This document shows positions 510 to 30,115 of a stretch of 38,343 nt of DNA, one piece after another. Numbering within the stretch: position 1 is the stretch's first letter; each line of letters begins with the position of its first letter. Position numbers and translations under genes: made by a program. The DNA is from Proteromonas lacertae. Lineage: Eukaryota. The notes below the pieces were generated by a model that was not told the origin of the DNA, ran no database searches, and worked only from the letters and a program-made list of their open reading frames with translations. The stretch lies in contig NGBS01000591.1 of assembly GCA_002245135.1 (NCBI GenBank), positions 186,001 to 224,343 on the forward strand, given 5' to 3'.

Positions 510-1485
510 TTATTCATCAAATGGATCTTCACAACAAGTCCTTTCACAAACTTTACACATTTCATCTAATTGTTTTTCAGTTAAATTGTATAATGTATCA
601 ATAAATGCAGTCTAGTAATGAAATTAATAAATCTAAATGAAAATATACTCTAAATGAAGCAGGACCTTTGCATTCTTTTTCAGCTATCTCACCAGCTACA
701 GAATACAAAGACATAGCCTACAAAATATAAATAAAATAATCATTACATTTGCAACTGAAGTAACAATATCTTCACTATCTATAATACATGCGATAATACA
801 TGCATTTAAAGAACATCCAATAGCTGTCACACGAGTCATCATTACTGTTCCATTAGGAATGTTTACTACTCTATTACCATCAGTTACATAATCCTCATCA
901 CCACTTATTGCTACTATACAGTGATATTTAGATGCAATTGCTATTCCGCTTTCCAATGCTTGATTACTGCTATTTGTACTATCTACACCTTTACTAACTA
1001 CTTTTGTCTCACCACATAAAGATATTATTTCACTAGCATTACCTCTGACAACTGTTGGATGAAAATCCATCAATTCCTTGTATACTTTTGTTCTGTATGG
1101 ATTTTATCAGTTAAAATTACTAAAACTGTGAAAATGTCTATCAAAAAAGATATGTTGCTCCACATCCACAAGGATCCAGTATCCATGGAATATTATTATC
1201 ATGTGCTGCTTTTGCAGCATTTTTCATTCCTTCAACCCATAAAGAATCTATTGTTCCTCCATTAATCAGCAATCCTCTTGAAATCTTTGGTAAAATCTGC
1301 AGTTTCTTCTGGTGCATGTATCTACATTATATTTATAATATATAATATACCATAGCAGGAGAAGCCTTCAAAGCAAGAAGAACATTAGCCATAATATCCA
1401 TACTTACATAATTAGTAATACAATGAATTAAAGGAGAGAGTTTTTCAACTCTACAATATGTTTCCTAAGGTTTTTCAATTGACAT
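510..1485 (-). CDS. thiM: Hydroxyethylthiazole kinase (ThiM); as sequenced it has an in-frame TAG and a +1 frameshift
   Basis: Motifs PLIHCITNYVSMDIMANVLLALKASPAM, INGGT, PWILDPCGCGAT-PYRT, VVRGNASEI, SKGVDS, VTAIGCSL and KGPASFR. Three GT-AG introns plus the AT-AA intron at 1102-1153. TAG at 1465-1467 and one extra base near 1285-1288. Confidence 0.85.
1102..1153 (-). other. U12-type AT-AA intron (52 nt, phase 2) in thiM
   Basis: ATATCTTT...TTTTAAC-TGATAAAA. Removal restores the conserved GAT-PYRT motif (GCA AC|T CCA TAC). Confidence 0.8.
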
Positions 1486-1655
1486 TTTAATTTAACGACT
1501 ATAATTTTGAAATGTAAATATGTTAATACAGTTATATTTGATTTATATTTGAATGTTTAATAACAACATAAATTCATATTGTGTTAATTGAAAATTAAAA
1601 ATTTATTATAAAAGAAAGAATTTATAAAATAATACACTATATTACATTTATATGC

Positions 1656-2033
1656 TTAAACTACATTCTCATTGTTTATTTTATTCACTTTTAAGCAAAT
1701 GGACTTAAATTCTGTCCCTTTTATTAACAATCTATTGAAATTTCTTAAAAATTCTAGTTTATCACCTAAAATAAATCATTATGGATGAAAATACTAACTT
1801 TTCTAAATTCTTTAACACGAGTGATAAATATATTGAAATCTCTGTCAGTACACTATTATATTGTGTTAAATAATGAAACATACAACGAAATTACCAACAA
1901 AAAACCTTCCATCTTTAACTTCTATTCTTACAGTTTCATTTATTAGTTTTGATAAAAAATCTCTTGGTGGTAAACTTTTCACTATATTAATTAATTTAAA
2001 CAGCTTTATACATTCATCTATTGGAGTAGACAT
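1656..2033 (-). CDS. NAA38: LSM-domain protein, NAA38/LSMD1 (NatC auxiliary subunit)-like; missed by the ORF track
   Basis: Spliced over three GT-AG introns: MSTPIDELKSLPPRDFLSKLINETVRIEVKDGRFFVGNFVCTDRDFNIFITRVKEFRKVSDKTRILRNFNRLLIKGTEFKSICLKV. The Sm1 motif has the CTDRD signature typical of LSMD1. Confidence 0.75.
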
Positions 2034-2594
2034 AAGATATTGACAATTCTATTTATTCCAAAAATATAATCGTTTCAAATGAAGTTGCATTTTTCATTTC
2101 TTTGATTTTCTTCATGATTAATAAAGGTATAATATTAATTATATATTTATTGAAATATAATTGCAAGATGTTGCTGTTTTATGCAATTTTTATTTGCATT
2201 TAACTTCCTATTACTTGCAAAATTCTAGTTTTATGTTTGAACTTTCACACCTTCATGTGTGAATAGAATAGAATAAAACTATATTCATTATAAAGTTCTA
2301 ATTTTATGTTTTATAGGATGTTTATAAATACTTGAGAAATACAAATATCATGATTTAATAATTATGATGGTTAGTTGATGATAGAGTTAAAAGAGAATTA
2401 AGTGAAGGAAGAGGTGAGATAATGAACATAGGTTTTGACTGTTTAAATAATAGTGTAAAGAGTAGTTAAATATTAAAGTGTTGTTATTATTATTAATGTT
2501 TTTTGTATGTAAATTTTTAATAATCTTATTATGTAAATAAGGATGTGTAGGCTTGATTATTGTTTGAATCCACTTTTTTTTATTTCAATTTTTA

Positions 2595-4938
2595 ATGCAT
2601 TATGAACGAATAAAACAGTTGGGTAGCGGAGCATTTGGAGTAACATATCTTATAAAATACAAAGATGGTTATGCTGCTATGAAAGAGATGAAAAGTGTTG
2701 CAGATTATAAAAAGTCTCAGCAAGAGTGTAATATTATGTCAAAATTAAGACATAATAATATAGTCAGAATGTTTGAATATGAAGACAATGAAAGTGAAAG
2801 AAGAATAACGATTATTATGGAGTATTGTAAATATGGTAGTCTAAAAGACATAATTAAGGAACTCAGTTATAATAAACAAAATTTATCTGAATATGGCGTA
2901 CTACACTATTTTATTGGAATGTCGTTGGGATTACAATATTTAGCATCATCATAATATATTACACCGTGATTTAAAAACTGATAATATATTCATAAATGCA
3001 GATAATATTGCATTGATTGGTGATTTTGGTTATTCTAAAGAAACAGCATCTTTAACCACAACAGTAGCTGGTACACCTCTTTATATGGCTCCAGAAATAT
3101 TAAAATCTGTTGGTAGTTATCAACCAGCTGAAAACTATTCGAATAAAGTCGATATATATAGTTTAGGTTGTATATTACATGAATTATGCACAAATGAACC
3201 ACCCTATAATGCCAGTAGTGTTGAAAATCTAATTGTGATGCAAATGAATTATAGATATAAAATACTTCCTGACAATTTATCTAAATTTGGAGATATTATA
3301 AGAAGATGTTTAGATTATGATCCAAATAATAGACCATCCATTGATGAATTATTGAATGACTCAATATTCCAAGATTATATAATGAATAAGAGTAGTAAAT
3401 ATTATCTTGCTTATAATACTCATTCATTTGAAGCACCACATTCAAAAGTAGTAATTCACTCACAACAACAACAACAATATCAAACTGGTGTTATTTCTGA
3501 AGAAAATAATTATCTCAATAATACAGTTGTTACTCATATCAACGAAAATATTCAACAAATTCAACCACCACCACAACAACAACAACCAATTCAGCAATAT
3601 TTACCGCCAGTAGTACAACAAAATCAACCACCACCACCACAACAACAACAGTTACAGCCACCACAACAACAACCAATTCAGCCACCACCACCACCACAAC
3701 AACAACAACAACAACCAATTCAGCAATATTTACCTCCAGTAGTACAACAAAATCAACCACCACAACAACAGCAACAATTTCAATATCAACAACAATTTCA
3801 ATATCAACAACCTTATTTGCCACAGCAACCACAGCAAGTACAATATCATCAATATCAACAGTCAAATCAACCATTTCCTTTACAACATCAACCAGGGAAT
3901 GGATTTTATGCAAATAACAAAGGACCAAAGACTCTTCCACCAAATAATAATCTGAATCAGTGTAAATATGATGGACCAAAGACTATGCAGCCTCAAGAAC
4001 AACCAACATCAAAGAATTTAAACTATAAAAAACCAAAGATAATGATTGTAGGAAAAAATCCAACAACAAACTCACCTCCACCATCACCTCCACCACCATC
4101 ACCACCACAAATTCAGCAACCAAATCAGAAACCTATTCAGCAATACATACAACAGCAACAACAACCATTACAATCAAAACAGAAACCTCTGCAACAGCCA
4201 TCACAACCACCATCACAACCACAAATTCAGCAACCAAATCAGAAACCTATTCAGCAATACATACAACAGCAGCAACAACAACCATTACAATCAAAACAGA
4301 AACCTCTGCAACAGCCATCACAACCACAAGAGAGGATAGCATCACCTCCATCACAACTTCCTGTTAAAATTCCTACAACAGAATTAGTTCAACAAAATGA
4401 TGAGATTATAAATTATCCTTTCATTGTATGTTCTTATAATATAATTCAAATAGAAAGAAATAGATGATGTGTTGAACAGTTTGGAGAGAAATTCAATAAC
4501 AAAGCATTTTAATGATATAAAAGATATTCTTACAGCTTACTCTGCTATTACTGCAAATATTCCAAGTATTATTATAAGTAAATCAATATTTCTTATTATT
4601 TAGATGAAATTGAAGATAAATTATTTCTGTTTTTTAAGAAACTATCCACTTATATTGGTAGACAATTACTTCAAGATGTTTTAAGTAGAGATAATCACAT
4701 AGAGTATTATAAAATGAATGGATATGAAGATGCAAAAGGGTATAGAATTTCTTATTATTATACTATTAAATATAGTAATTGGGAAAAAGATATGAGAGTT
4801 ATATCTTTACTTTCATTGATGATTCAGTACCTTGAATGTCATCATAGAGAAGCAGAAGCGAAAGCTATAAAAGTAGCTTTATCAAAAGATGGAATTGTAT
4901 GAAATTTTCTACTAATTTATTTCTAGGACCTTAATTAA
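2595..4938 (+). CDS. NEK/NIMA-like Ser/Thr kinase with a Q/P-rich linker and a helical C-terminal region
   Basis: GSGAFG, AMKE, HRDLKTDN, DFG and GTPLYMAPE. One extra base near 2943 splits the domain (YL-g-HHHNILHRD). Four GT-AG introns in the 3' part, stop at 4936-4938. Confidence 0.85.
3560..4330 (+). repeat. CAA/CCA-rich low-complexity coding region with internal duplications
   Basis: Near-identical copies at 4105-4209 and 4219-4326 (PQIQQPNQKPIQQYIQQ...KPLQQPSQP). QPIQQYLPPVVQQNQPP occurs at about 3583 and about 3712. Confidence 0.85.
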
Positions 4939-5054
4939 AGCACTTTATTAATCATTATATAAATACATAAATATAGTAATTTCATATTATTCATTGTTTT
5001 TTAATTCCAAAAATATATTCGTTTTAAGAATCTTTTGAAACTCCTTTATCGTTA

Positions 5055-8018
5055 ATGGAAGATACATATGATCCAAAGAAAATGTATCCTGAGTTTATTT
5101 TGAAAGCTCAAAAAAGTGCACTTGAAGCTGAAGTCAGTGATCATATTGTTAATCCAGCTGCTTTAACAATAGCCACTCATACTGGTTCCTTTCATTGTGC
5201 TGAAGCTTTGGCTATTGCTATGTTAAGAGTTCTACCAGAATTTTCTCATTCTCGTACAATTCAAAAAATCATTGTATTTATTATCACTAGAAATTGTTCG
5301 AACTCATAACAAAGATATTCTACAAAACTGTGAAATATGGGTTGGTGTTGGTGGAGAGTTCAATATAGAAAAGAATCATTTCGATTCACATATACCTGGA
5401 TTTAGAGAAGCATTTTCATCTCATTACTTTACTCCACTATCATGTTGTGGAATGATATACAAATTATATGGTAGAGATATAATAGAAGCATTATTAGATG
5501 TTAATATATTATCACATGATCTTGAAGTGTTATATGAAATAGTATATCAATGATGATTAATAATATTAATTGAAATAGATATATTTTTCATTCATTGAAC
5601 ATATTGATGCACAAGATAATGGTATAGGAATAGCTGAAAGGCCATTGTATCAAATATGTAATAGTTTACCATATCGAATATCATTATTACATCGTCATTG
5701 GGGTGAAGATTATCTTGATTTGTTTAAGAAAGCAATGGCTATTAGTCTTGGTGAATTTGTTGATATGTTGCATTATTATACTACAGATTGGTTACCAAAT
5801 AGATTATCATTTTCTATTGTATATATTGATTTTTTGTTTTATTATGAATTAATAGAGTTTTGAAAAAATGTTTAGAGATAACTCAGAGATTCTATATATT
5901 CCTACTTATTATAAATGGAAGCTATTTCTATATCCTTATGAAAATGAAAGGCATTGTTTAGGTCATACTAAATTTGTAGTATGTCCTAACAAGAAAGGTG
6001 ATTTATGGTTAGTTTTCGCAGTTAGAAATAGCCAAAATTCTACGCAGTACAGAGCATTATTGAACGAAAATTGGAGAGGTTTAGAAAGAGAAGAACTAGT
6101 AACAAAATCAAAGATAGATACTTTAGTTTATATTAATTTAGAAGGAACACAAGGTGGTAGTTTAGACTCAGATGGAGCAATCAAATTAGCAGAAATATCT
6201 TATGAATTATTGAAAGATGAATTTGAAACTCAAACTCCATTCACTCCATTTTCACCATTAACTCCACAAGTTTCTGCTTCAAATTTAGTTGGTTTAGGTG
6301 AAGCACAGAAATCGTCGAATGATTCTGTTATTATTAGATCATCTTTAACTCCAAGACAAGAATTTATAAGTAATGCATCTGTATTTACAGAAATACCAGA
6401 AGGTGTTGATCCAATGAAATGTATTGCTACACATGGACAGAAGTTTCATGCAGATGAAAGTCTTAGTTGTTCTTTATTGAAGTTATTACCAGATTATAAA
6501 GATTATAGTATTTTTTTATACAATATTCCATTTATAGCAATAATAAGAACTCGTGATATAGATATAATACAAAAATGTGGAGTTGTTGTTGATGTTGGTA
6601 AAGAATATGATCCAATAAAGTATATTATTATAATATTTGTTATATTATGAAATAGAATGAGGTTTGATCATCATCAAAGAGACTTTGATGAAACTTATGG
6701 AAGTGATTTTACAACAAAATTATCCAGTGCAGGTTTGATATTCAAACATTTTGGACAAGAAATAGTTCAATCATTAATACCTCGTAAATTAAATGAATCA
6801 GAAATAAAGACAATTTGTGATAGAGTATATAAAATATTCATTGAACAAATTGATGCAGCTGATAATGGTATTGATATTAGTGAATGTCCAAAATTTCAAG
6901 TTTCTTCTTCAATATCTCAAAGAGTTGCTAAATTGAATTCTGCACCTCGTATTTTTATTTGATTATTCATATTATTGTTATTAGATAAAGAAGAAATGTT
7001 CAAACAAGCAATGACTTTAATCATTGGTGAATTTATTGACATAGTTAAATCATGTTATAAAAACTGGTTACCATCAAGAAACTATTTAAAGAAAGACTTT
7101 GCCATAATGTTAACTCAAGATTTTAGTAAGCATGTATTAGTATTAACAAAGAGTTACAATTGGAAAGGTCATCTTTATGAATATGAAAGAAAAAAGAAAA
7201 TGATTGGGCAAGTCAAATTTGTTCTATATCCTGCAGGTGGTGGATGGAATATCCAAGCAGTTCCAATCAATGAGTTTTCATTTCAAAATAGAGTTGGTTT
7301 ATATGAACCATGGAGAGGATTAGATGGTAAAACATTATGTCTTGTCAGTGGTATTGATGGTTGTAGATTTGTACATGCAGACGGTTTCTTAGGATCAAAT
7401 AGTACATTCGATGGAGCTGTACAAATGGCATTGAGATCAATGGATTTAGATGTTTTAAGTCCAACAACACCAAGACCAAGTGAATGTATATTATACTTTT
7501 ATTATATTCATTTATTTTTAATAGTATTTTCACAGTTATATAAACATGGATCATTGATATTATCAGAAGATCATACAGTTGCATCTGTAGAACCTGCTGA
7601 TTGGTCATTTAGATATGTTTGTGTTGATCATTTAATTGAAAGTGGAATAACAAGATTTTCATTTCACTTAACTGTTGATGAACTAAATGGTGGTTGGATA
7701 ATGATTGGAGCAACTCAAACGCCTGCAATTGGAGAAGATGATATGTTTAGACAGCAGAATACTTATACTTACAGTGGTGTAACAGGAGAAATAAAAACTG
7801 GAAATAGTAAATGGATAAAACAAAAGAATTATCCTCCAATTCGTCAAGGTGATATAGTTCAAATGAAATTTGATATGAATAAAAAGACTTTAAGCTATAA
7901 AATCAATAATAAAAAATTAGGTGTTGTGTTTAATGATATAGAAGCACCATTATATGCTTATATAGAATTGCTGGGATATAAGAAGATGGAAGTAAGATTA
8001 CTGAATTTTGCTATGTAA
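5055..8018 (+). CDS. Tandem MYG1 (DHH-family exonuclease) domains plus a C-terminal SPRY/B30.2-like domain
   Basis: Seven GT-AG introns join the ORF fragments in frame. Domain 2 has THGQKFHADE, VVDVG, FDHHQ, KLSSAGL, IDAADNG, WRGL and FVHADGF. Domain 1 is a degenerate copy. The tail has the SPRY-like pattern WIMIG...GDIVQMKFDMNKKTLSYKINNKKLGVVF...PLYAYIEL. Confidence 0.85.
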
Positions 8019-8160
8019 ATCATTACATAAATAATAAATTATCACATATTTTATCATTTTTCATTTTTTTTCCATTTATATAATATTAAAAACAAAACAC
8101 ATGTGAAGATATAAAAAAAAATCAAAATTAAATAATATAATACTTGTTATTGTTTTACTT

Positions 8161-8675
8161 TTACTTGCTGTCATCTTCTATATCATCAGCACCAATTTTC
8201 TTCCACTCTTTCATCACAACTCCTTCATTATAATGTGCTTTTCTCTTTCTTTCAAATTCTTTTCTTCTTTTCTCTTCCTCAATTCTTTCTAGTCTATTTC
8301 ATAAATAAAATAATAATAACAATATTAATACTCTTCAATACTCTTTTCATCTCCTTCTTCGACACGCTTTTGTAACTATCATAAATAAAGCAATAAAGCA
8401 TACTTCTAATTTATAAGCTAGGTCATTTGGATTGATAGCTTCATCTTCCTCATCTTTTGGTTCCATACCTGGAGGTGGATGATAAGGAGTTTTAGGTTCA
8501 CTGATAATCATATGACGACCACGTTCCTTATCATATTCTGATATACCCTTTTCATCCCACTGCAACTTTGCTCTGAGCATATTATTCAATAAAGTATATA
8601 CCTTTTATGAGCTTTTTCACCATGTTCTAGTAGAATAGGTTTTACTTTTTTATCATTTTGCTTTGTATCACTCAT
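8161..8675 (-). CDS. PPP1R2: Protein phosphatase 1 inhibitor 2 (IPP-2)
   Basis: KPILL, KLQWDE, ISEPKTPY and FERKRKAHYNEG motifs over three GT-AG introns. Confidence 0.9.
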
Positions 8676-8820
8676 AATCTAAAAAATAAATATCAAATGC
8701 TTGATTCTTCTCAAACTTTTTTGATTTTCTCATTTTCTCAACAAATAGAATGCAAAAAGTATTAAAAAAATTAATAAAATCAATAATTCATTTACTGGTA
8801 TACATTATGATATTATATTT

Positions 8821-9189
8821 TTATCCACAAACTGGATCTGTTCCACAACCAAGAACTTGATGGCAATGAGCACAGCAATGAACACTATAATCAATATCGC
8901 ATATAGTTAATACGGCTTTTTTAAACCTTGACAACAGCATAAAAATAGAGCAAAGCAAGTTAGGAAGAAACATAGACAAATAACTAGACAGGTTCTAAAA
9001 ACAAATAAATTATGTTGATATAATTATACAAATTACCACTTTCATATTCCACAATAGTAAAACCTCTATAATGGCAATAAGGGCATTCTATATCCACTGG
9101 TCTATAAAATATATACATCAAATATACGTTGTTCCAAAAAATATAATACCTCCTAATTTTTCTTGTCTTACTATCAAATTTTCATTCAT
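8821..9189 (-). CDS. LITAF-domain (zf-LITAF) small membrane-associated protein, copy A
   Basis: Spliced over three GT-AG introns: ...PVDIECPYCHYRGFTIVEYESG-hydrophobic Cys-rich stretch-KKPVHCCAHCHQVLG...DPVCG*. Shows the CxxC / hydrophobic / HxCxxC pattern. Confidence 0.85.
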
Positions 9190-9565
9190 TTTCAAAAAAA
9201 TATCTAAAATGTAACGAATCTATTTTTTAGAAGACCTAAAAAAATACAAATTTATTTAGTCATTAAAAAAAATCTTTAAAAATTGTATAATATGATAATA
9301 GATGAAAAAATGCAGCTTTAATGATAACGACAATTTAAATTCATTAATCTATAAGTAGTAATTTATGTATATATTCACTATGTTCGTGTGGTGTACATTG
9401 TTTAATTTGATATTGCTAATTAAAAGTAATATTAATCCAAACAAAAACTTAAAATTATTGTTTTTATGTTATTTTCCTATTTCTGCTAACAAATAAATGA
9501 TATTTAAAGTCATAATCATATTAAATGTATGATATCATTCTTTTTAAAATCTCCTTGTCAAGTGC

Positions 9566-9939
9566 TTATGGACAAACTGGATCTTGTCCCATACCAATTA
9601 CAGAATGGCACTTAGCACAATAATGAACACTATTATTATTATATAATATATATAATACGGCTTTTTCAATCCCTGAATGCAACATAATATAAAAGCGAAA
9701 CATGATAAGACGAAAAAGAATAAACAGAGGACTAAGCATGTTCTAAAGTATATAATAAACATTGTTTTATGTATACAAATTCCCACTTTCAAATTCTACT
9801 AGAGTATAACCTCTATGACCACAAAATGGACATTTTGTATCAACAGGCCTATATGTGCTTATATAAATTAGATATACATTTGTCCGAAGTATATAGGTCC
9901 TCCTGCATATTCGGCACTGCTAACAGCATTTTGTTTCAT
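9566..9939 (-). CDS. LITAF-domain protein, copy B (tandem paralogue)
   Basis: ...PVDTKCPFCGHRGYTLVEFESG-hydrophobic-KKPVHYCAKCHSVIG...DPVCP*. Same three intron positions as copy A. Confidence 0.85.
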
Positions 9940-10025
9940 TTTTTGTAATATTCAAAAATCTTAAAAAACGAATGAATTTATTGAAATGTAAAAAATGACT
10001 TTACTCAAACTTGTATCAAATACTA

Positions 10026-11572
10026 TTAATTTAAATTATCTACATTATCATTACGATTTATTTCATTATCTTCTACATCTAATCGATAATCTGGAGAATA
10101 AGGAACAAACTCACGTTTTATTGGTAAAGAAGGAGTAAGAGTTTCAAGTTGTGGTAATTCTGGTATGCTTAAATAATCACTAATCACTTTATGACATTCA
10201 TTAAATCCAAGCGATAAAGCCAAATATAACGGTGTTGTACTTGATTTGTTTCTAGCTCTGTAATTAGCTCCTAAAGGTAATAAACACTTTATTATTGTTG
10301 GATTATTAGCTCTAACAGCACAATGAAGTGGTGTATCTCCTTCTTCATCAACTGCATTAATCATGTCAGGATATATTTCAAGAAAATACTTCACACAAAT
10401 CTCAAAAACAGCTTCTAATTCTTCATTATCGATTTTCTCTTGTGGTAATGAACAGAGTAGATGAAATGGTAATTTTCCACTTTTATCTGTATTATAAGGA
10501 CTTACTCCATATCGAACTAAAGATTCGATTATTTCTTCAGTATTTATATTAAATCCTTCACCACAAATTGCATGTAAACAATTCCTTGAATATGTTGTTA
10601 GTAATGTTGGTCTTAATACATCAATCTATTGATTTGTATATTAATATATATATATATATATATATACTTGTAATAATAAATTGATTATATTTATATCACC
10701 TAAAGTACAAGCTATATACAAAGGAAAATAACCTAATGCATCTTGATAATTAACATTAACACCCCATTCAAGAAGAAGTCTAATTATATCCATATTTTGA
10801 GTAGAAATTGCATACATAAATGCACTTTTCTTAGTATCATTACAATAATTAGGATCAACACCATCATTTAATAATATATATATCTGATTATAGTTTTGTG
10901 ACTGTATGGAATTGATCAAAGATGGTCCTCCATAGTTAGGAGGAGGATGAGATAATTCAAACACTAAGTTCGTTAAACCTCCACACCACAGATTAGCTTC
11001 AGATAGTGTATTAGTGTATAATATTAGAAATCTTGTTCCTGCTTGAATTACAAAGTAAGATACCTTAGGATTTAATTCTGATTTATTCTTGGGTGGAACT
11101 TGTGATATCATTTCTATTTGAGATAATAATACATTTCCTATTGGCTCTTTATCTTCTTTTTTAAGTCTCCATTCTAATTTTCTAGTAATTGGATCAACAT
11201 TAAACCAATATTCTCTTGCACTTCCTAAATCTCCTAAAAGAAGTTCGTTATCTGAATCTGAGTCAAATTCAGAGTTTAATTTATCTAAATGATATAATTC
11301 CATGTGCTCATCATATTTCTCCTTTGAACTACACCACTGATTACAATTTACACATTTTCTATATTATATTAGATTTCAATTTCAAAAATACCTTGGATAT
11401 TCTGTATTAGCTTTAGCCGCTGCAGTTAGACTTCCTTCAGTAGAATGTTTCCATAAATATCCTCCAAAAATGATTTTAGCTACAGATCGTTTTATTTATT
11501 AAGGACATAGTAATATAAATGTTTTAAAAATGATATATCTTTGGCATATTCATGCCAACCTCTTAAAGCCAT
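10026..11572 (-). CDS. PH domain (with inserted C2H2-like finger) plus ankyrin-repeat protein
   Basis: GGYLWKH...REYWF...LEWR...PIGNVLLSQI...EANLWCGGL is PH-like. Ankyrin motifs include GDTPLHCAV and GYFPLYIAC. ATG at 11572, AT-AA intron at 11490-11536 and two GT-AG introns. Confidence 0.8.
11490..11536 (-). other. U12-type AT-AA intron (47 nt, phase 0)
   Basis: ATATCATT...GTCCTTAAT-AAATAAAA. Removal joins MALRGWHEYAKD to RSVAKIIFGGYLWK. Confidence 0.7.
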
Positions 11573-14109: not shown

Positions 14110-15447
14110 TTAAGGACATTTCTTATCTAAATACTTTACTCCATTCTCATTATACTCTCTTTTATTAAACCACATTTCATCAAAACCATTTATACTACAT
14201 AACAAACTTCCTCCAATCCAACTCAGTATATTTCTATCATTCTCACTGGAATTAATCACTTTCATCTTATTCGTATTAGGATTCATTACTAAATCCATCT
14301 CTCTACAAATTCTATCATAAAATCCATTCATGGAACTATTACCACCAGTAACAACTGTACTTTTCAGTTCCTTTCTTATCTCTGCATTTAAGCAATTCAC
14401 ACTATTAGATATATATCCTGTAAATGATATTATATTACTATCTATTCCAGGAACACTTGGATCATAAAGTATCTCTGGAACTGCAAATCTTTCAAGTCCA
14501 ACTTCAATTTGCTGTCCATCTGGAAGTGTAAATGGAACAGGTAAGAAAGTTCTATTTCCTTCTTCTTCACTTCGTATAAATGGCATATCACTCATTACAC
14601 TAACTTGTTGTTTGATTTGTGAACCTATTTCTCTCTTTATGTAATTATAATATGTTTCATTACATTAAATATTCATTAAAGAAAATATAAAAATTATAAT
14701 ATCATTAAAAGAAAGAAAGATATATTTTCATTTATTTTAGGTACAATGCCTTTCTTTTCCACTAATTCAGTATAAAAATACTCATCAAAATATCTTCCAC
14801 CCAAAGGACATTTTTGAACTCCTTCTTTTAATACCCATCCATCTAATACAGGAATACAACCAGTATATTGATAACATGATTCTATTACATAAGCACTTGT
14901 CACACCACAACCATAGCAACTTACTACTGCTGAATTGCAGAAGTATATAGCAGGCACTTTGTATGTTTCGAATAGTATTTCTGTGTATTTATATCGTTCA
15001 TTATCTGTTATATCCAGTGGTTCTACAATTAATATTGGGTTTTCTTCTAAACTTGTATCATGATTTAATTTCTTACAATTGTCTATGAGTAGTTCAATGG
15101 CATCCCAGTCTTTTACTATAAAGAAAATGTGATAATCTATATACCATGTCCATCATTTGTGAGTGGGTCATATACATAACTGATTGATTTACTAATCAAA
15201 AACATTAAATAGTATATATATATACTTTGTGAGTAAATCATTTATATACCATTTTGATCTGTTGATGTTAATATCTATTTCTTTCATTTTATTTGCATCT
15301 GGTAAATCTATTCCAATAGAAGTTGGTACAATAACCTATATCACTAAACATAATAAACTATACACCTGGCTTACAATCACCTGCATCTCCAAAGCAAGTT
15401 TTGTATGTCCCTATATCCAAAACAACTCCTCTTTGGTCAATATTCAT
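14110..15447 (-). CDS. ARP4: Actin-related protein, ARP4/ACTL6-like
   Basis: VVLDIGT...GDAGDCKP, DWDAIE, IVEP, TEILFETYKVPAIY, LPDGQQIEVGLERFAVPEILYDPS, VVTGGNS, SWIGGSLL and the terminal KKCP. Three GT-AG introns plus one AT-AA intron. Confidence 0.85.
14665..14723 (-). other. U12-type AT-AA intron (59 nt, phase 0) in ARP4
   Basis: ATATCTTT...TTCTTTAAT-GAATATTTAA. Removal gives VPKINEN|CNETYYNYIKREIGSQIK. No AG acceptor lies between the upstream-frame stop and the start of the downstream open frame. Confidence 0.8.
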
Positions 15448-18308: not shown

Positions 18309-18380
18309 TGAGGTAAGAGAGATTTGAACTCCCAACCTTTGGATCTGGAATCCAACGCGCTACCGTTGTGCCATTACCCC
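18309..18380 (-). tRNA. tRNA-Trp(CCA)
   Basis: GGGGTAA acceptor pairs with TTACCTC. D-arm TGGCACAACGGTAGCGC, anticodon arm TTGGA-TTCCAGA-TCCAA, T-loop GTTCAAATC, followed by an oligo-T Pol III terminator. Confidence 0.95.
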
Positions 18381-19146: not shown

Positions 19147-19226
19147 TTGTTTATAATCTCTTCATTTATAAAATATGTTTTTACTTCAACCAACAAATAA
19201 TAATAAAAACTAAAAAAATATCAAAA

Positions 19227-20358
19227 CTATTTATTTTTCTTCATCATTTTTTCTTTTTTGACAATATCATCATCTTCATTATCAGATTTATCACTATAAT
19301 CTTCACTATCACTCGACAATTTATCATTATCTAACTCTTTAACACCATCAATTATCTTTGTAATAAATGAAGAATCATCATTTATCACTTCTTTATCTTC
19401 TTCAGTATAATCTTGTATCTTTATCTCATCAGGTCTTATCACATCAAATTCTACAGGCATTTTAATATCTAAACCTTGGTAGCAATTACAGAATGCAAAT
19501 AAATTAACAGAATACATATTACTTCCTGGTGTATCTGGTGCTTGAAAGTGTAGCTTAACAGTAAACTCTCTTTCTTTACTCACACTTGTTTCATATGATG
19601 AAACTACTACACTTGGCTTCATTGTAATACGATTGACTACATTAGCAACTAACATGAAATACCATTTCTCTTGTATATCACCATAATAACTAAAAAACAA
19701 TTAAAAATATTACAATAATATTCATATTTATACCAATTTGAATGGCATTGTGGTGCTTTTTCTTTTGGTTTAACATGCAATCTTTTACAATGAACATTTA
19801 CTGTTACTAAATCATTTGTTGCAATCGTGTCTTCATCAGCTACAGTACATTTTGCAGTTATTTCCATAATAGGAAAAAGAGAAGTAACTGTTTTAACATC
19901 TTCGCGGTTTTCTTTATTTATTAATTCTTCAAAATTTTCACTATTTTAAAAATAAATATAATAATATTAATAATACAATGGCTGCTTAATGAACTGTTTA
20001 AATGAATCACATTTCGATCTAATCTTTGCTATTTCTTCATTACTCATATTTGGTAGTTGTGCAAATGGTTCATTATCACCATAGATTCCTTGATATAACA
20101 TTTGACTTAAGTGTAAAATATGTGATACTTTACTAAACTCAGTAATTTCAGTAAATGGATTAATATCCACAACACATTCAAACATATGTTTTACTAACTT
20201 GGTACAAATGGGTAATATTGTGATTAGATCACTTATATCATCATAAGTTAGCTCATTATATAATCTGTTTAAATATGCGTGTAATAATATATTGGCTTTG
20301 ACATAACGATATTGTTTTTTATTTAATGATTCTAAATGGTCTGGATCAACCAACTATT

Positions 20359-20392
<34 letters not shown>

Positions 20393-21333
20393 GATATACT
20401 GATGGTTTAATCATTTGTCTTTTCTTCTTCATCATTGCATATAATTCTTTTAAATGTTTTATTTCACTTTCTTTTCTCTTTAATAAATCAGTTTCTGTAA
20501 ATTCATCAGAAAGACATAATATATCAATCAATACACTATATATAATTAAATATATAAATATTTGCTTTTTATACTCCCTATTTGTATCTTCTTTTATGTT
20601 TTTATGATATAATCGTGTAGTTTCCATATATATATTATCATCACCTGAATAATATCTTGTTTGATTATAACAATAAAAAGATATTAGTGGAATAAATATA
20701 ACCATAAATGCACCATAAATATACAATACTTTCAATTTATTTTCTGGCTCTAATAACCAGGAAGGTAAACCGATTGAGATTTTGAAATCTACAAATCCAT
20801 CGGGATTACCTGTTTCTTCATAATTTCTTCTACCTTCTTCATCAGTCAATGCTTCATATGCTTTTTGAATTTTGATGAATTTGGCTTTATCACCTGTTGT
20901 TTTATCTGGATGATACTTTAAACTTAATTTACGATATGCTTTTTTAATATCACTCAGTTTGGCACCTGACTTTATATTCAGTATTTCGTAAGGATCAAAA
21001 ATATCGGAAGGTCTATTCTTCTGAATAACTTGATATGCATTTTGAAGTAGAAGCAAAATAATTGCACATATTATTATTTGCAAAATTACTCCTTTGTGAC
21101 AAAATCGAGAAGAGAATGATTCACGATTAGCCATATCACTGTATTTCTTTAATTCAGCTTGACTTCTTGCTTTCTAGCGTATTATATTATAAAATACATA
21201 CCTTTTTTGGATTAATCTGTCCGAAATATGAATCATAGCATCTCCATAATATATAGAGTGTAGCAGGTATTAAATATAATGTTAAACAAGAAAAAATGAA
21301 GTAAGAAAAGGCAGATGAGTCGTAATCAATCAT
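19227..21333 (-). CDS. SEC63: SEC63 translocon subunit (TM, J domain, Sec63/Brl domain, acidic tail)
   Basis: MIDYDSSAFSYF N-terminus, FDPYEIL, KAYRKLSLKYHPDK, GNPDG, IGLPSWL, KANILLHAYL and FQAP...CYQGLD. Five GT-AG introns. Confidence 0.92.
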
Positions 21334-21494
21334 TTTCTAAAAGCAAACTTGACTTGACATTATATGGGAGTTTGAAACAGTTCCGATACAAATACCCAAT
21401 TTAAAAACTTTAAAAAATCTTTCTTTTTTGGATTTCTCAACACTTAATTAATAAATCTTTAAACTTGATACATATTTAATTAGTAATAATACAA

Positions 21495-23004
21495 ATGTCA
21501 TCAAAATCGTTCTTTAAACCTCCAGAAATATCGGGATATACTTATAAGAAGTACTTAGGACATGGAATGAAAGGAGCTCTTTATCAAGTTCAAAGAGATG
21601 ATGATTATGCAGAAAATCCAGATAAGTTTGCCTTGAGAATCGTTTGGATTGGTAAAAAGAAAAATGTTGATGATGAAATATCCTTATTATCTCAACAAGT
21701 ATAATATATTCATTGCTATAATTATATAGTGTGATAACCTCCAAAGAATATCTTGTGAAACATTAATCACCTGTATTGACTTTGGTAACCCAGGATCATT
21801 CTTTTTTGCTTTATATAATTGTCCAGAAAAAGGTTCATTAAAATATTTACTATTTAAAAACCGTAAACAGCGAGTAGCAATAGCAGAAAGATTTATACTA
21901 GGAATCTGTGCAGATTTAGCCAAAGCATTAGTGAAAATACATTCATTCAAATTACCTCATGGAGATGTAACACCTCAGAATATATTTATGAATAGTGAAG
22001 GAAGATTTGTCTTAGGTGAATATGGAATTAATCGTCACTTTACTCTAAGTGATACAAATGTAATAAGTGCAGGAATGCCTTATTATTTACCACCAGAAAT
22101 AGTAGTGAATGATTCAGAACCTACATTAAGATCAGATATCTTCTCATTAGGTTGTGTATTATGGGAATGTTGTAATCTACAGCCATTATTCCCGGATTAT
22201 TTTAGTATAATTAAGTTTAATAATGATAAACAATTACCATCTACATTCTTTGAAGGGTATAGTGAAGTTTTGAGAGAAGTGATTCAAACATGTTTGAATT
22301 ATGATAACAAACAAAGACCTGAAGCTGAGGATATATTGGATGTTGATTGTATTAAAAAATATATTCAAGATAGAAGTATTACATTTTTTAATTTATTTTC
22401 TATAGTTAATCCTCATCCTACTAAATTAACATATCCCAAGAATAACTTTGTATTTGTAGTGAATGAAGAAGTTAAAAGTGAATCTACAACACCACAAGTT
22501 GATGTTAGTACTGTTGATAGTTATTCTATCGAGCCAAACCTCCCAAATGGTTTAATATTTGATTCTAATACTGGTGCGATTAGTGGTACACCAACTGAAT
22601 CACAAAAATCACAAAGTTATACAGTTACTGTAGAAAAAGGTGATCAAGGTTGTGATACTAAGATTAATATATCAATTATTACTAGTGAACCACCAGCTAA
22701 TTTGAAATACCCTAAAGATAAGTGGATTTTGAAGATTGATTCTGAAGTTCATATACAACCGACTTGTGATAATATTCCTACTATATATATGAGTCCTGGA
22801 GGTCTTCCTAATGGATTATATCTTGATCCAATAACTGGAGTTGTTTCTGGATCGCCAACTGATGCTAATCCTCCGACTGGCTATACTATCGTTGCTAAAA
22901 ATCAATTTGGATCAAGCGTGTTTCAGGTTGAAATTGAAATTATTGGTATATATTTTGTTTTTATTTCAATAGATGTATTTAACCCAAGAGATCCTTCATA
23001 TTAA
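21495..23004 (+). CDS. NEK-like pseudokinase fused to two putative Ig (He_PIG) repeats
   Basis: Kinase fold with FALR, HGDVTPQN, GEYG, YLPPE and SDIFSLG. Two LPNGL.D..TG..SG.PT repeats. Three GT-AG introns. Confidence 0.8.
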
Positions 23005-23107
23005 CCATATATAATAAATTTTTATTATTTTTGTATTTTTGTGATATTATTTTTGTGATTGTATATCTTGTTCAGTATACTTCATTCAGAAATTTAAAAA
23101 TACTCTA

Positions 23108-23119
23108 TTTGGCGCGAAA
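23108..23119. promoter_or_regulatory. Double-stranded E2F-type site TTTGGCGCGAAA upstream of BRCA2
   Basis: Matches TTTSSCGC on both strands. It is a CG-rich word in very AT-rich DNA, about 255 nt before the BRCA2 ATG. Confidence 0.65.
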
Positions 23120-23374
23120 TTTTCTTTTATATATTTTTTAGCTTTTCTCATTCCTCAAAGATTTTGATTTTTCTAAAATATTTTTTTCCTATTCAATATA
23201 GAATGTATACACCATTCATACATATATTTAGTCAATATTCAAAGATCTCACTTAATTCAACTCTTGGTTTATAATTCATTCATTAAAGGTATATGATCTT
23301 TTATATTCAATATAATAGAATATTTATTAATTATATATTAATACAATACACCATATATAAATATATCAAGTTAA

Positions 23375-26300
23375 ATGCCTAGATTGAAGAGAAGTATTAT
23401 CTCTAAATCATCTGTGTTACATCCATCTCTTCTAGAAAAGACTGAGAAAGAAAATATAATCCGTCATTCAATTTCAAAAACTAATTCCTCTACCAAAATA
23501 CCTTCAAATAATTTAATTGATTCTTCCATTAATGTTTCAACCCCCATAAAACGCAAAAATAAAGATGACGAAGAAGATTCATATGAAAGTCCAGTTATAC
23601 CAATTATCTTATCACAAAATCAACATAAAAAGAAAAGAGTGAATGAACCATTATTAATTATATCAAGCAAAGAAAATAATAAAATGAGCAATAAAGTACT
23701 TAGTTCAATATTCAGTACAGGAAGTGGTAAATCAATCGAGATAGATGCTAGTGCTTATAAGAAAGCTGAATCCTTATTGAATGAAAAAGCTGAAGAAGAA
23801 GAAGAAATGAACAAAGATAAAGAAGATAATAAAGAAGATATAAAAAGTAAAGGAATCAGTTACACTCCTCCAGTTGTGAAGAATAATAAAATGAACAATA
23901 AAGTACTTAGTTCAATATTCAGTACAGGAAGTGGTAAATCAATCGAGATAGATGCTAGTGCTTATAAGAAAGCTGAATCCTTATTGAATGAAAAAGCTGA
24001 AGAAGAAGAAGAAATGAACAAAGATAAAGAAGATAATAAAGAAGATATAAAAAGTAAAGGAATCAGTTACACTCCTCCAGTTGTGAAGAATAATAAAATG
24101 AACAATAAAGTACTTAGTTCAATATTCAGTACAGGAAGTGGTAAATCAATCGAGATAGATGCTAGTGCTTATAAGAAAGCTGAATCCTTATTGAATGAAA
24201 AAGCTGAAGAAGAAGAAGAAATGAACAAAGATAAAGAAGATAATAAAGAAGATATAAAAAGTAAAGGAATCAGTTACACTCCTCCAGTTGTGAAGAATAA
24301 TAAAATGAACAATAAAGTACTTAGTTCAATATTTAGTACAGGAAGTGGTAAATCAATCGAGATAGATGCTAGTGCTTATAAGAAAGCTGAATCCTTATTG
24401 AATGAAAAAGCTGAAGAAGAAGAAGAAATGAACAAAGATAAAGAAGATAATAAAGAAGATATAAAAAGTAAAGGAATCAGTTACACTCCTCCAGTTGTGA
24501 AGAATAATAAAATGAACAATAAAGTACTTAGTTCAATATTCAGTACAGGAAGTGGTAAATCAATCGAGATAGATGCTAGTGCTTATAAGAAAGCTGAATC
24601 CTTATTGAATGAAAAAGCTGAAGAAGAAGAAGAAATGAACAAAGATAAAGAAGATAATAAAGAAGATATAAAAAGTAAAGGAATCAGTTACACTCCTCCA
24701 GTTGTGAAGAATAATAAAATGAACAATAAAGTACTTAGTTCAATATTCAGTACAGGAAGTGGTAAATCAATCGAGATAGATGCTAGTGCTTATAAGAAAG
24801 CTGAATCCTTATTGAATGAAAAAGCTGAAGAAGAAGAAGAAATGAACAAAGATAAAGAAGATAATAAAGAAGATATAAAAAGTAAAGGAATCAGTTACAC
24901 TCCTCCAGTTGTGAAGAATAATAAAATGAACAATAAAGTACTTAGTTCAATATTTAGTACAGGAAGTGGTAAATCAATCGAGATAGATGCTAGTGCTTAT
25001 AAGAAAGCTGAATCCTTATTGAATGAAAAAGCTGAAGAAGAAGAAGAAATGAACAAAGATAAAGAAGATAATAAAGAAGATATAAAAAGTAAAGGAATCA
25101 GTTACACTCCTCCAGTTGTGAAGAATAATAAAATGAACAATAAAGTACTTAGTTCAATATTCAGTACAGGAAGTGGTAAATCAATCGAGATAGATGCTAG
25201 TGCTTATAAGAAAGCTGAATCCTTATTGAATGAAAAAGCTGAAGAAGAAGAAGAAATGAACAAAGATAAAGAAGATAATAAAGAAGATATAAAAAGTAAA
25301 GGAATCAGTTACACTCCTCCAGTTGTGAAGAATAATAAAATGAACAATAAAGTACTTAGTTCAATATTCAGTACAGGAAGTGGTAAATCAATCGAGATAG
25401 ATGCTAGTGCTTATAAGAAAGCTGAATCCTTATTGAATGAAAAAGCTGAAGAAGAAGAAGAAATGAACAAAGATAAAGAAGATAATAAAGAAGATATAAA
25501 AAGTAAAGGAATCAGTTACACTCCTCCAGTTGTGAAGAATAATAAAATGAACAATAAAGTACTTAGTTCAATATTCAGTACAGGAAGTGGTAAATCAATC
25601 GAGATAGATGCTAGTGCTTATAAGAAAGCTGAATCCTTATTGAATGAAAAAGCTGAAGAAGAAGAAGAAATGAACAAAGATAAAGAAGATAATAAAGAAG
25701 ATATAAAAAGTAAAGGAATCAGTTACACTCCTCCAGTTGTGAAGAATAATAAAATGAACAATAAAGTACTTAGTTCAATATTCAGTACAGGAAGTGGTAA
25801 ATCAATCGAGATAGATGCTAGTGCTTATAAGAAAGCTGAATCCTTATTGAATGAAAAAGCTGAAGAAGAAGAAGAAATGAACAAAGATAAAGAAGATAAT
25901 AAAGAAGATATAAAAAGTAAAGGAATCAGTTACACTCCTCCAGTTGTGAAGAATAATAAAATGAACAATAAAGTACTTAGTTCAATATTTAGTACAGGAA
26001 GTGGTAAATCAATCGAGATAGATGCTAGTGCTTATAAGAAAGTTGAATCCTTATTGAATGAAAAAGCTGAAGAAGAAGAAAAGCTTAGTAAAATTAGTAA
26101 TGTAGTAAAAGAAGAAAGTCCTACTAATGTTCAACCTGTTTTCGATGATATACCTTTTACTCAAGGATCAGTATCTTCAGAAAACATGGAGAATGACGAA
26201 AATAGTGAAACATATACTTCAAGAATAAAGATATCATCTCCATTAAAGCATTTCATTTCTAATCTTGACGAATCTGATTTACCTGACACTCCTCCAACTA

Positions 26301-29300
26301 TATTTAAATCAAATATAGAAAATAGTAATAATCATATAGATAATGGTAATGATGATGATGAATTATCTCAACCAATATTACCATTAGAAGATGAAACTAG
26401 CCAATCATTATATCTTGAAATTCCTGTGAAAAGAACAAATACATCAGATTTAGAATCAATAATAAGAGATGATGATAACATTAAGAGACAAAAGATTGAT
26501 AATAATTGTTATAATAATGATAGTGAAGATATATTATCAGATTATACTACTCCTGATGTTCCATTTCTATCTCCATTACAAGTTGATTCTACAAATAGAG
26601 CAGACAATGCTCTATCAGATAATTCTACCACAGATATATCACATAATACTTCACATTGTGATTGTAATAAAGAGAATATCAATGATAATGTGTTTATTAC
26701 TCCTTCTGTTGATAAAATCAAAAGAAAATTCAGCGAAATAAGTAATATTAATATTTCACCAATACCATTTACATCTCCACTTACTGTTGCTACAGTTACA
26801 ATTCAAAATCAACTACAACCACCACCACAACAACAAATAAAGACAATATCATCTCTTCCAAGTTTATCAACTACTATTAACAATAACAATGACCAACATA
26901 TTACTCCAATTAAATCAAACCAAAAAGAGAATGAAATGATTATTCTTACACCAGAATTACAACAGAAACAACAAAATCAACAGCAAGTTTTAAATACTAC
27001 ACTATTATCACATGCAAGGTCAAATGTAATTGAATCATCTCCATTTGCTAATAAGAATGATACGAATTTGTTGCATTTAACACCCATAAAACCTTTCAAT
27101 AATAATAATGTAAGATATACACTTAGAAATGGTAATAGTAATAATCTCTTTACTCCAGTAAAAAAGTATAGAGCATTAGATAGAATAGATCAATTATCAC
27201 AATCTTCACAGTCATCACAACCTACAATTATACATCAAACATCACCACCTCAACAGTTAACAACAAACATCTCAAATATAGATCCAATTAAACAACAACA
27301 ACAACAACAACAACAATTATCTATTCCTATACTAACTCCATCTAAATCAGTTATAACTCCAATAAAGAATAATAAAACACTTATAACATCTCCAATAACA
27401 ATGATTAAGCCATACAATCCTTATAATTATCATATTAAGAAATGGAATGTTCCTGAATCATTGTCAACAGAGAAAGAATTAGCATCAATCTACAGTAACA
27501 ATGGCTTATCACAATTAGTAATATATATGAATTCAACCAAAGCAAAATATTTAGTATTTGATATAGACACTGGATTACCATCATCAATATCTAATGAACT
27601 AAATCATCCAACAATAGACTACATATATAAACATCTACAGCAAACAGTTCAATCACCTAATCTATTAACATTACCATGGTTAAAGAATCATTATCGATGG
27701 GTGGTATGGAAATTAGCTTCATTAGAAAGATGGAGTGGAATAGCTAATAAGTATTTAACATTAGATAAAGTGATTAATCAATTAACAAAGAGATTTAATA
27801 AAGAAATAATCGAAGGAAAACAACCTCCAATGAAAAGGATATTACATAAAGATATAAACTGCTCATTATATATAATACTCTGCATTTCATCTATAATATC
27901 AAAGAATTCAATAAGTCAATGTTCAGTCGAATTAACAGATGGTTGGTATGGAATAGAATGTCAATTAGATAATCAATTAAGTAATATGTTAAAGAAAGGA
28001 TTGCTCTATGTTGGTCAAAAATTATGTATTAGTGATGCACAACTAGAAGGAGTTAATCAAGGAATAGAACCATTAGATTGTAAGATAAACAATAGTGAAG
28101 ATGGTACAAATGAGCCAAAGTTGATTATATCAAAGAATTCAACTTGTATTGCTCCTTATAATAGAAAATTAGGATATCAGAGATCAAGATTATTAATAAG
28201 AGGAATTAATGAATTAAGTAATGATGGAGGTAGAGTTTCATGCATTGAAGTTTGTATATTAAGAAAGTTCCCACAGAAGTATATGCAGAAAGTGAAAGAA
28301 GGTTATAGATGCATTGATGAAACTGAATTTAATCATTTATTGAATGAATACACAAAGAAAAAAGAAGAATTTATTGAGAAAAGAAGACAGTTTTATCATT
28401 TAGGTGATTATGGTGATAGTCCTTCTTCTCAAATTAGTGAAAAAGAAATGAAATATTTAATGGCTCAATTTCAAAAGAAACAAGAAAGGATTATAGCAAA
28501 AATAGAAAAAGAAGTGGATGAATTTGATAATGAGAGTATTTCACTATTATTATTACTATTATTTTAGATTCAATTAATTGTACTCCATTTTTAGAATTTG
28601 CTGTTCATGATACAGTAATAAAGAATCATCCAATAACTCATGTTTGTATATGGAATAATTCATCAGATATGAATCAAACAATTAAAGAAGGATCACATTG
28701 GAGAATAAGTTCATTATTAGCTGGTAAAGGCAAAGGTGGATTGATTAGATTAAGTACTTCCAGAAATACGAAATGGGATGAAATTAAGAATATTGATAAT
28801 AATCATGTATATTAGTTTCTATTATTATAATAATATATATAGGAATGCTTTTATAAACCACCATCCTATTCAAATATCTCAACTTTTACTACCGACACTC
28901 CATTGAACATATTTATTAATACATCAGGTTTAATAGTGTATATAAATCATCCTGTGAATAGTAATACTGCTCAAATATTCTGTTTATCTCCAGAATTATC
29001 AATATTTGTAGTATATATGTTTGTATCAACATTAACAGCAGAATTGGAGATAAACACTCCAATATCATTCTGTGATATAAAATATGAAGGAATTGACAAA
29101 ACATTTCAATTTTATATGTTCGAATATAGTAATATATCAAGTTATTATACTACTAATACAAAATGTCCAAATATACTGTTGCAATCTTATAATATATTAT
29201 CAGATTCATCATTTGTTAGTAATCTACCTTGTACTTTCAATTATATAAACGAAATATTACAGAAATCGTTAAATACAAATGATTATCAGAAACTAATTGA

Positions 29301-30115
29301 TTTTAGTCAATATTTAAAACATTATTCTGTTGTTTTACCAAAGATTACAGATATTAATAATAATAACAGTATTTCAAGATGTAATTCAATGAAAAGAGGA
29401 TTTTCAAATATAGTAGAATTTGAAGGGCCAAATACATTATACTATATCTCAGTATACAAAGACAATAAGATCAACAATTCAAATAAATAAAAAATTAGAA
29501 AATACACCTGTTACTCCATCACAATCAGATATTGTTCCTCCTGCAAAAGTACCATATAAAGTAAATACAACTGAATTGATTCATTGTTATAATCAAAGAG
29601 ATTATAATGAATTGGATAATGTTTTTATTCTATGTTATATAGATGATGGATTAGATGCATATAGCTTTGAGTGTAGCTTGAGACAGTTTGATAGTATTTT
29701 GAATATGATTGAATTGAACATTATATCTTTTTTAAAAATATTATTATTATATTTATTATTTCTTAATATAGTATAAACTGAGTGGGAACCGTTTTATGAA
29801 CAACTGATATTAATTAATTCACCTTTATTCTCATATATATCTAAAATTCCAACATCTCATTCAATAATTCATTTATTGATACATTTAGATTCAACTAATT
29901 CAGAGACTATCATTTGCCCTTGTAGTCAATACTTCAAATTTGCAGAAATAGTAATAACTACATTTAATAATTATTTAAAAACAATTTTTCAGAGTCTTTT
30001 CCTCAAAGTAAAACTTTATTTGAAGGATGACAAGTATTATCTTAATCAATTCGAGAAATCTCATTGTATATCTAAATCCAACAATGCATCATTTCTATTT
30101 GATAATATTGATTAA
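23375..30115 (+). CDS. BRCA2: BRCA2 homologue: 12 BRC repeats, helical domain, OB1, OB2/tower, OB3 and a C-terminal extension
   Basis: WLKNHYRWVVWKLASLER, VELTDGWYGI, NSTCIAPYNRKLG, DGGRVSCIEVCILRKFP and LSTSRNTKW. Two GT-AG introns, a +1 shift near 29425 and an AT-AA intron at 29723-29776. The 3' end beyond 29490 is less certain. Confidence 0.9.
23678..26080 (+). repeat. Tandem array of 12 x 207 nt (69 aa) units, each with one BRC repeat
   Basis: FSTGSGKSIEIDASAYKKAESLL recurs every 207 nt from about 23711 to about 25988. The units are almost identical in DNA. Confidence 0.95.
29723..29776 (+). other. U12-type AT-AA intron (54 nt, phase 0) in the BRCA2 3' region
   Basis: ATATCTTT...TTTCTTAAT-ATAGTATAA. 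Removal joins MIELNI to TEWEPFYEQL and on into ORF 29876-30115. The nearby AG and AC ends give early stops. Confidence 0.75.

What the first reader, a model, noticed from the sequence alone, without database searches (positions are those of the whole stretch)
1102..29776. A systematic class of AT-AA minor-spliceosome (U12-type) introns
Seen: four unrelated genes (thiM 1102-1153, PH-ankyrin 11490-11536, ARP4 14665-14723, BRCA2 29723-29776) have frame breaks repaired by removing an element of one design. The 5' end is ATATC(T/A)TT, a pyrimidine-TTAA(C/T) branch motif ends 8-10 nt from the 3' end, and the terminus is AA. Lengths are 47-59 nt, all longer than the 23-44 nt GT-AG introns. Known: U12 introns use RTATCCTT and TCCTTAAC and normally end GT-AG or AT-AC, with AT-AA a rare variant. 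Inference: AT-AA is the dominant minor class in this lineage (4 of 4; no AT-AC or GTATCYTT-AG seen). That would imply a remodelled minor spliceosome with C-to-T shifted signals and altered 3' splice-site recognition.
Basis: partly seen in the sequence, partly recalled or inferred. Interest (0 to 1): 0.92.

Follow-up and report, generated by a model that had tools for sequence, protein, structure and literature searches.

The report
Minor introns ending AA, Blastocystis relative
Four genes of an AT-rich relative of the gut protist Blastocystis are interrupted by short inserts that carry the signals of the rare "minor" class of introns and likely end in AA instead of the textbook AC or AG; if this holds across the genome, the exception would be the rule in this lineage, but no RNA evidence was available.

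Summary
The four elements are at the stated coordinates and form a class apart from the window's 39 GT-AG introns: +5 C in 4 of 4 against 0 of 39, a branch motif 8-10 nt from the end in 4 of 4 against 1 of 39, and 47-59 nt against 23-46 nt. Homology pins the AA end only in thiM (top of 312 excisions), and thiM has two other lesions. PH and BRCA2 rest on donor register and frame; ARP4 could end AA (59 or 68 nt) or AT (65 nt). The organism groups as sister to Blastocystis, which is known to keep a minor spliceosome. In the published ST1 intron table the last base is already loose (120 rows read: AC 71, AG 42, AT 4, AA 3). So this is best read as a shifted variant of the clade's A-type minor introns, with AA likely the commonest end. 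Compensatory snRNA changes are untested and not required. No genome, RNA or orthologous DNA could be obtained; the sample is four. New variant of a known kind.

The parts
1102..1153 (-). thiM element, 52 nt, ATATCTTT...AA, phase 2; branch motif TTTAAC at 1115-1110
   Evidence: Top-scoring of 312 open in-frame excisions against a profile of 120 ThiM homologues (209.0 bits, tied with a 1-nt slide giving the same protein); best AT-AC 191.0, AT-AG 191.9, GT-AG 175.2; restores the 24-residue spacing seen in 104 of 119 homologues
11490..11536 (-). PH-ankyrin gene element, 47 nt, ATATCATT...AA, phase 0; branch motif CTTAAT at 11503-11498
   Evidence: Downstream exon is homologous to P0243-P0245 and has two stops and no ATG directly upstream; with the ATATC donor the AC one base further gives a stop at the junction; formal alternatives: GT-AG 80 or 98 nt with a GTTG donor, AT-AC with off-register donors
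14665..14723 (-). ARP4 element, 59 nt, ATATCTTT...AA, phase 0; branch motif TTTAAT at 14680-14675
   Evidence: Both flanks match Pfam Actin, the upstream flank best matches ACTL6A; junction lies in an unaligned loop, so not pinned by homology
14656..14669 (-). ARP4 alternative 3' region: second TTTAAT at 14669-14664 with in-frame ends at 14659 (AT, 65 nt) and 14656 (AA, 68 nt)
29723..29776 (+). BRCA2 tail element, 54 nt, ATATCTTT...AA, phase 0; branch motif CTTAAT at 29762-29767
   Evidence: 6% GC, non-coding score (-3.9 bits), ends in an in-frame stop between two coding-like stretches (+26.8 and +9.6 bits); no Pfam or Atlas hit on either flank; next in-frame end is AG at 29782, 15 nt past the motif

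Best explanation
These four inserts carry minor-intron signals and are likely A-type (U12-dependent) introns whose 3' end is likely set by distance from the branch site, with a loosely checked last base that has likely shifted to A as the commonest choice in this AT-rich Blastocystis relative. Shown: coordinates, motifs, separation from the GT-AG class, the thiM junction by homology, the frame constraints. Inferred: U11/U6atac read the ATATC(T/A)TT donor and U12 the YTTAAY branch site, with C-to-T changes absorbed as G-U wobble; the cut falls at the first A-N dinucleotide ending at least 8 nt after the branch motif; the first A pairs with the last base in a non-Watson-Crick pair that accepts A. 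A+T mutation pressure (intron cores about 10% G+C) removed C and G at that position; some selection of A over T probably adds to it.
For: +5 C 4 of 4 vs 0 of 39 GT-AG introns, branch motif 4 of 4 vs 1 of 39, all four longer than all 39. thiM junction top of 312. The 8-nt minimum taken from thiM alone predicts an in-frame AA end in the other three, for both ARP4 branch options (lists; about 1 in 27 by chance, my estimate). Putative branch A at -10 to -12 fits the -12 to -10 range used for Physarum and is near the 11-13 nt optimum in a review. Sister group Blastocystis (ArgRS tree, SH-aLRT 98) has 346 U12 introns and all four minor snRNAs in ST1; its ATATCC introns vary at the last base (120 of 336 rows read: AC 71, AG 42, AT 4, AA 3). 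AT-AA is a known functional minor terminus (1.1% of conserved minor introns in animals, 3.0% in plants). AA share here differs from the ST1 sample even if only two sites count (Fisher p 0.002; 7e-6 for four).
Against: No transcript, raw read or orthologous DNA was seen. n = 4 in a window picked out for this pattern. thiM has an in-frame TAG (1467-1465) and a +1 frame break near 1286, so it is either a pseudogene or poorly assembled. Other unexplained frame breaks lie near 2945, 29490 and 37170-38100. ARP4 has an in-frame AT end at a distance usual in ST1, and BRCA2 an in-frame AG end. ST1 introns mostly have 5-7 nt after the branch motif (read by eye), not 8-10, and 0 of 339 start ATATCA as the PH element does. 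With a fully free last base, four A's have probability 0.02, three 0.05, two 0.14, so an AA/AT mixture is not excluded. No minor snRNA lies in the window.
Confidence: 0.62

Rival explanations
1. Real A-type minor introns with a nearly free last base: AA and AT are both common genome-wide, AC and AG persist, and four AA ends are partly sampling luck. No change in the spliceosome beyond what Blastocystis already shows.
For: ST1 already tolerates all four last bases; intron cores are 37.5% A and 52% T; ARP4 could be AT-AT; only two or three ends are firm.
Against: Neutral chance of four A's is 0.02; with ST1-like weights rescaled to this base composition it is 0.0006-0.002 (crude model).
Confidence: 0.22
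2. Ordinary AT-AC minor introns that look like AT-AA through assembly errors or, in thiM, decay of a pseudogene.
For: The window has several unexplained single-base frame breaks; an AC lies 1-2 nt beyond the AA in PH, BRCA2 and the 68-nt ARP4 option, so one lost or extra base each would make them AT-AC.
Against: Four independent errors at four junctions are needed; the six longest exons hold 17,551 uninterrupted coding bases; thiM has no AC near the pinned end; for PH, ARP4 and BRCA2 the AC register meets a stop at or within three codons of the junction, so a distant upstream indel cannot rescue it.
Confidence: 0.07
3. The junctions lie elsewhere: long GT-AG introns or off-register AT-AC introns, or the elements are removed by the major spliceosome.
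For: Open GT-AG or AT-AC excisions exist on paper for PH, ARP4 and BRCA2.
Against: They need 80-150 nt introns or donors unlike the window's GTAT (37 of 39) or the clade's ATATC; in thiM they lose 18-34 bits; all 39 major introns end TAG; no single shifted register works for all four.
Confidence: 0.09

Closest known systems
Blastocystis sp. ST1 U12-type introns (Gentekaki 2017, PMC5608401; Larue and Roy 2023, PMC10639083)
   Same: Short (ST1 median 39 nt), longer than the genome's major introns, start ATATC, TT-N-A-Y branch motif close to the end, A at -2, variable last base, many in phase 0 (3 of 4 here)
   Different: ST1: +6 C in 336 of 339, last base C 59% or G 35%, A 2.5% (120 rows read), mostly 5-7 nt after the motif, 1% of introns. 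Here: +6 T or A, last base A, 8-10 nt, 4 of 43 introns located in the window
AT-AA non-canonical minor introns of animals and plants (A-type, AT-AN; PMC10639083 Table S1, PMC1557818 Table 2, PMC8280824)
   Same: Same termini and motif design; AT-AA is the commonest non-canonical minor terminus there
   Different: A rare exception there (1.1% animals, 3.0% plants); apparently the rule in this window
Physarum polycephalum expanded minor intron system (10.1101/2020.10.12.336362)
   Same: +6 C-to-T donors, branch A 9-12 nt from the end, many non-canonical ends with AT-AA at 27% of them
   Different: Physarum has a changed TTTGA branch motif and mostly GT-AG or AT-AC ends; a transposon origin was proposed there, whereas the four elements here share no internal similarity

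Membership tests
U12-type (minor) introns | 5' splice site RTATCCTT-like, exact register | tested here: met
   ATATC at +1 to +5 in 4 of 4, TT at +7/+8; +6 is T (3) or A (1) rather than C
U12-type (minor) introns | Conserved branch sequence of TCCTTAAC type close to the 3' end | tested here: met
   TTTTAAC, TCCTTAAT, TCTTTAAT, TTCTTAAT; second A at -10, -10, -12, -11; 1 of 39 major introns has such a motif there
U12-type (minor) introns | Removal restores the coding sequence | tested here: met
   thiM by homology; the other three by open frame only
U12-type (minor) introns | Excised from the transcript at these junctions | not testable with these tools
   No RNA holder listed
U12-type (minor) introns | Genome encodes U11, U12, U4atac, U6atac and minor-specific proteins | not testable with these tools
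   No genome held; none in the window; present in sister taxon ST1 and ST7
U12-type (minor) introns | Position shared with a minor intron in another lineage | tested here: not met
   Tested for ARP4 only: the human ACTL6A minor intron (GT-AG, phase 2) falls in a stretch that is continuous coding sequence in this gene, well upstream of the element. Supportive when present, not defining
Canonical AT-AC subtype | AC terminus | tested here: not met
   No in-frame AC within 14 nt of the branch motif with the ATATC donor at any of 4 sites
U2-type (major) introns of this genome | GTAT donor, TAG acceptor, 23-46 nt | tested here: not met
   37 of 39 GTAT, 39 of 39 TAG, 0 of 39 +5 C
Introner or transposon-derived intron family | Sequence similarity among copies | tested here: not met
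   6 of 6 core pairs no better than shuffles, 59-313 of 500

The most novel reading that the evidence does not exclude
This lineage runs a minor spliceosome tuned to A...A: almost all its minor introns end AT-AA, AC a base or two further on is passed over, and minor introns are several times more abundant than in Blastocystis ST1 (4 of 43 here, 9%, 95% interval 2.6-22%), many of them recently gained. It would be the first genome in which neither AC nor AG is the main minor terminus.
Probability: 0.35. Interest if true: 0.82.

Novelty: new variant of a known kind. Interest (0 to 1): 0.62.

Why it matters
A genome where AT-AA is the normal minor terminus would be a natural experiment on how the spliceosome checks the last intron base: Blastocystis ST1 (C or G) and this relative (A) could be compared at the level of PRP8, CENATAC, ZRSR2 and the snRNAs, and against genome base composition, to separate drift from real specificity. 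It also matters in practice: gene finders limited to GT-AG, GC-AG and AT-AC would miss or misplace these introns, so minor intron counts in AT-rich protists may be too low.

Tried and rejected
Whole genome: none held. Sequencing runs for window 600-10000: no RNA holder listed. Metagenome contigs with an ArgRS query, chosen because the gene lies between two elements: 80 loci kept of 590, best 47% identity, no close relative, not analysed further. ARP4 homologue search gave 1 distant hit; PDB actins and ACTL6A do not align across the junction. Atlas: no usable hit for the BRCA2 downstream exon. Rfam: only a tRNA. A gene parser allowing any ATATC...AN intron proposed three further candidates (5544, 29444, 37326); 5544 is a GT-AG intron, the other two lack a branch motif and were rejected. 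The idea that the ARP4 element sits at the human ACTL6A minor-intron position was tested and rejected. The first ARP4 enumeration used a wrong frame and was redone. The ArgRS tree is the quick version; the careful search did not finish. Earlier notes on this genome or look-alikes: none. Papers not held: the Proteromonas genome paper, Dietrich 2001 and 2005, Brock 2008.
Full report
Observation. Pfam supports the gene labels; the ARP4 upstream exon is closest to ACTL6A among solved structures. The motif was fitted to the elements, and a looser version gave 21 hits against 12.4, so the motif alone is weak; the coincidence with breaks carries the weight.

A class apart from the major introns. I located 39 GT-AG introns by a parser and by inspection (the list may miss some). 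They are 23-46 nt, 37 start GTAT, all end TAG, none has C at +5, and one has YTTAAY 8-10 nt from the end. The four elements all have +5 C, all have the motif, and all are longer (Fisher 8e-6 and 4e-5). Their cores are unrelated to each other.

How firm is each AA end? thiM: of 312 open in-frame excisions scored against a profile of 120 homologues, 1153-1102 ranks first, tied only with a one-base slide that gives the same protein but has no splice-like ends; the best AT-AC, AT-AG and GT-AG choices lose 18, 17 and 34 bits, and only a 52-nt removal gives the 24-residue spacing of 104 of 119 homologues. But thiM also has a TAG at codon 7 and a +1 break near 1286. PH-ankyrin: the downstream exon is conserved and needs an upstream exon; with the ATATC donor the only in-frame A-N end within 14 nt after the motif is AA at 8 nt, and the AC one base further creates a stop. 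GT-AG routes need 80-98 nt and a GTTG donor. BRCA2: AA at 9 nt or AG at 15 nt; neither flank has a homologue, both score as coding, the downstream one weakly, and an unexplained break lies 230 nt upstream. ARP4: AA at 59 nt, AT at 65 nt or AA at 68 nt, in a loop that homologues do not align.

One rule fits all: cut at the first A-N dinucleotide ending at least 8 nt after the branch motif. Taking the 8 from thiM alone, it gives an in-frame AA end in PH, BRCA2 and both ARP4 branch options (lists), about 1 in 27 by chance (my estimate). It also means an AC at 9 nt (PH) and at 11 nt (BRCA2) is passed over.

Organism. Arginyl-tRNA synthetase is 59% identical to a tortoise Blastocystis and 55% to strain DL. 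In a quick maximum-likelihood tree the window and three unnamed relatives (76-94%) form the sister group of all Blastocystis rows (SH-aLRT 98, one gene). GC is 27.4%; a published table gives 27.0% for Proteromonas lacertae and 21-23% for tortoise Blastocystis. No Proteromonas protein was in the tree, so I call it a Blastocystis relative, probably within Opalinata (inference).

What the sister group does. Gentekaki 2017 reports 346 U12 introns among 35,412 and all four minor snRNAs in ST1. Its intron table holds 336 rows starting ATATCC, 3 ATATCT and 0 ATATCA (the ST7 sheet is cut short). I read 120 of the 336 and counted by hand: AC 71, AG 42, AT 4, AA 3; the three ATATCT rows end AC, AA, AG. 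The 25 ST1 GTATCCTT rows are 29-33 nt, like major introns. So the clade's minor class looks A-type with a loose last base. The window differs in which base is used (p 0.002 even for two sites), at +6, and in a branch distance about 3 nt longer.

Mechanism. Shown: signals, junction constraints. Inferred: U11 and U6atac pair with the donor and U12 with the branch site; C-to-T changes give G-U wobble, so no compensatory snRNA change is needed (own knowledge). Branch-to-end distance is a known determinant of minor 3' ends, non-canonical ends work with lower efficiency (review), and AT-AN introns depend on CENATAC in human cells. First and last intron bases form a non-Watson-Crick pair (recalled, no call). 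With intron cores at 37.5% A, 52% T and 10.5% G+C, drift alone gives four A's with probability 0.02; ST1-like weights give 0.0006-0.002 (crude). I therefore favour drift plus some preference for A, with an AA/AT mixture as the main rival.

Against. No RNA, reads, genome or orthologous DNA. Four cases in a window picked for the pattern. Unexplained indels exist, mostly near the window's ends, though 17,551 coding bases in the six longest exons are clean. The ARP4 element is not at the human ACTL6A minor-intron position, so it has no support from positional conservation.

Novelty. AT-AA is known as a rare minor terminus: 1.1% in animals, 3.0% in plants, 3 human cases in Sheth 2006, 27% of non-canonical minor introns in Physarum. 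Eight library searches listed no paper describing a lineage with AT-AA as the majority, nor minor introns in Proteromonas or opalinids; subscription papers, including the Proteromonas genome paper, were not held, and bioRxiv supplements are closed. Papers seen: PMC10639083 (passages, section 30, supplement part 8), PMC5608401 (passages, section 8, supplement 12, supplement 32 part 1 and searches), PMC12129017 (passages, section 5), PMC10690189, PMC1557818, PMC3584512 and 10.1101/2020.10.12.336362 (passages), PMC8280824 (passages, supplement rows); the rest as search listings only.

Verdict. Observation confirmed; U12-type identity about 0.9; AA at three or more of the four ends about 0.8; AA the commonest minor end genome-wide about 0.6. 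New variant of a known kind; interest 0.62.

Noticed in passing
window 1467-1465 and about 1286 (minus): thiM has an in-frame TAG at codon 7 and a +1 frame break: pseudogene or assembly error.
   Followed up: partly
window about 2945, about 29490, 37170-38100: Further frame breaks that no intron explains: in the NEK-like kinase domain, in the BRCA2 tail, and several in the 3' part of the midasin-like gene.
   Followed up: partly
whole window: Major introns are very uniform: 37 of 39 start GTAT and 39 of 39 end TAG, 23-46 nt, median 33.
   Followed up: yes
whole window: Minor-type share is 4 of 43 located introns (9%) against 1% in Blastocystis ST1; p 0.0008 before allowing for the window having been picked out, and the intron list may be incomplete.
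   Followed up: partly
PMC5608401 supplement 32: Blastocystis ST1 minor introns are 35% AT-AG in the 120 rows read, and its 25 GTATCCTT introns are 29-33 nt like major ones; a review calls AT-AG disfavoured. The paper's main text describes them only as typically AT-AC.
   Followed up: partly
window 11572 (minus) and 11611 (plus): The PH-ankyrin gene and arginyl-tRNA synthetase start back to back, 38 nt apart; cluster members of both genes share contig lengths in the relatives, hinting at kept synteny.
   Followed up: no
window 23375-26200: BRCA2 carries a long array of near-identical BRC-containing repeat units of about 70 residues.
   Followed up: no
window 5028-8018: One gene appears to join two MYG1 exonuclease domains and a SPRY domain.
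   Followed up: no
window 8820-9190 and 9565-9940 (minus); 1-330 vs 30370-30700: A tandem pair of small cysteine-rich (LITAF-like, label recalled) paralogues with shared intron positions; the window's first 330 nt have a diverged paralogue near 30.4-30.7 kb.
   Followed up: partly
window 18309-18380 (minus): A tRNA gene (Rfam). The Blastocystis TGTTTGTT motif occurs only 3 times in the window and genes end in encoded stops.
   Followed up: no
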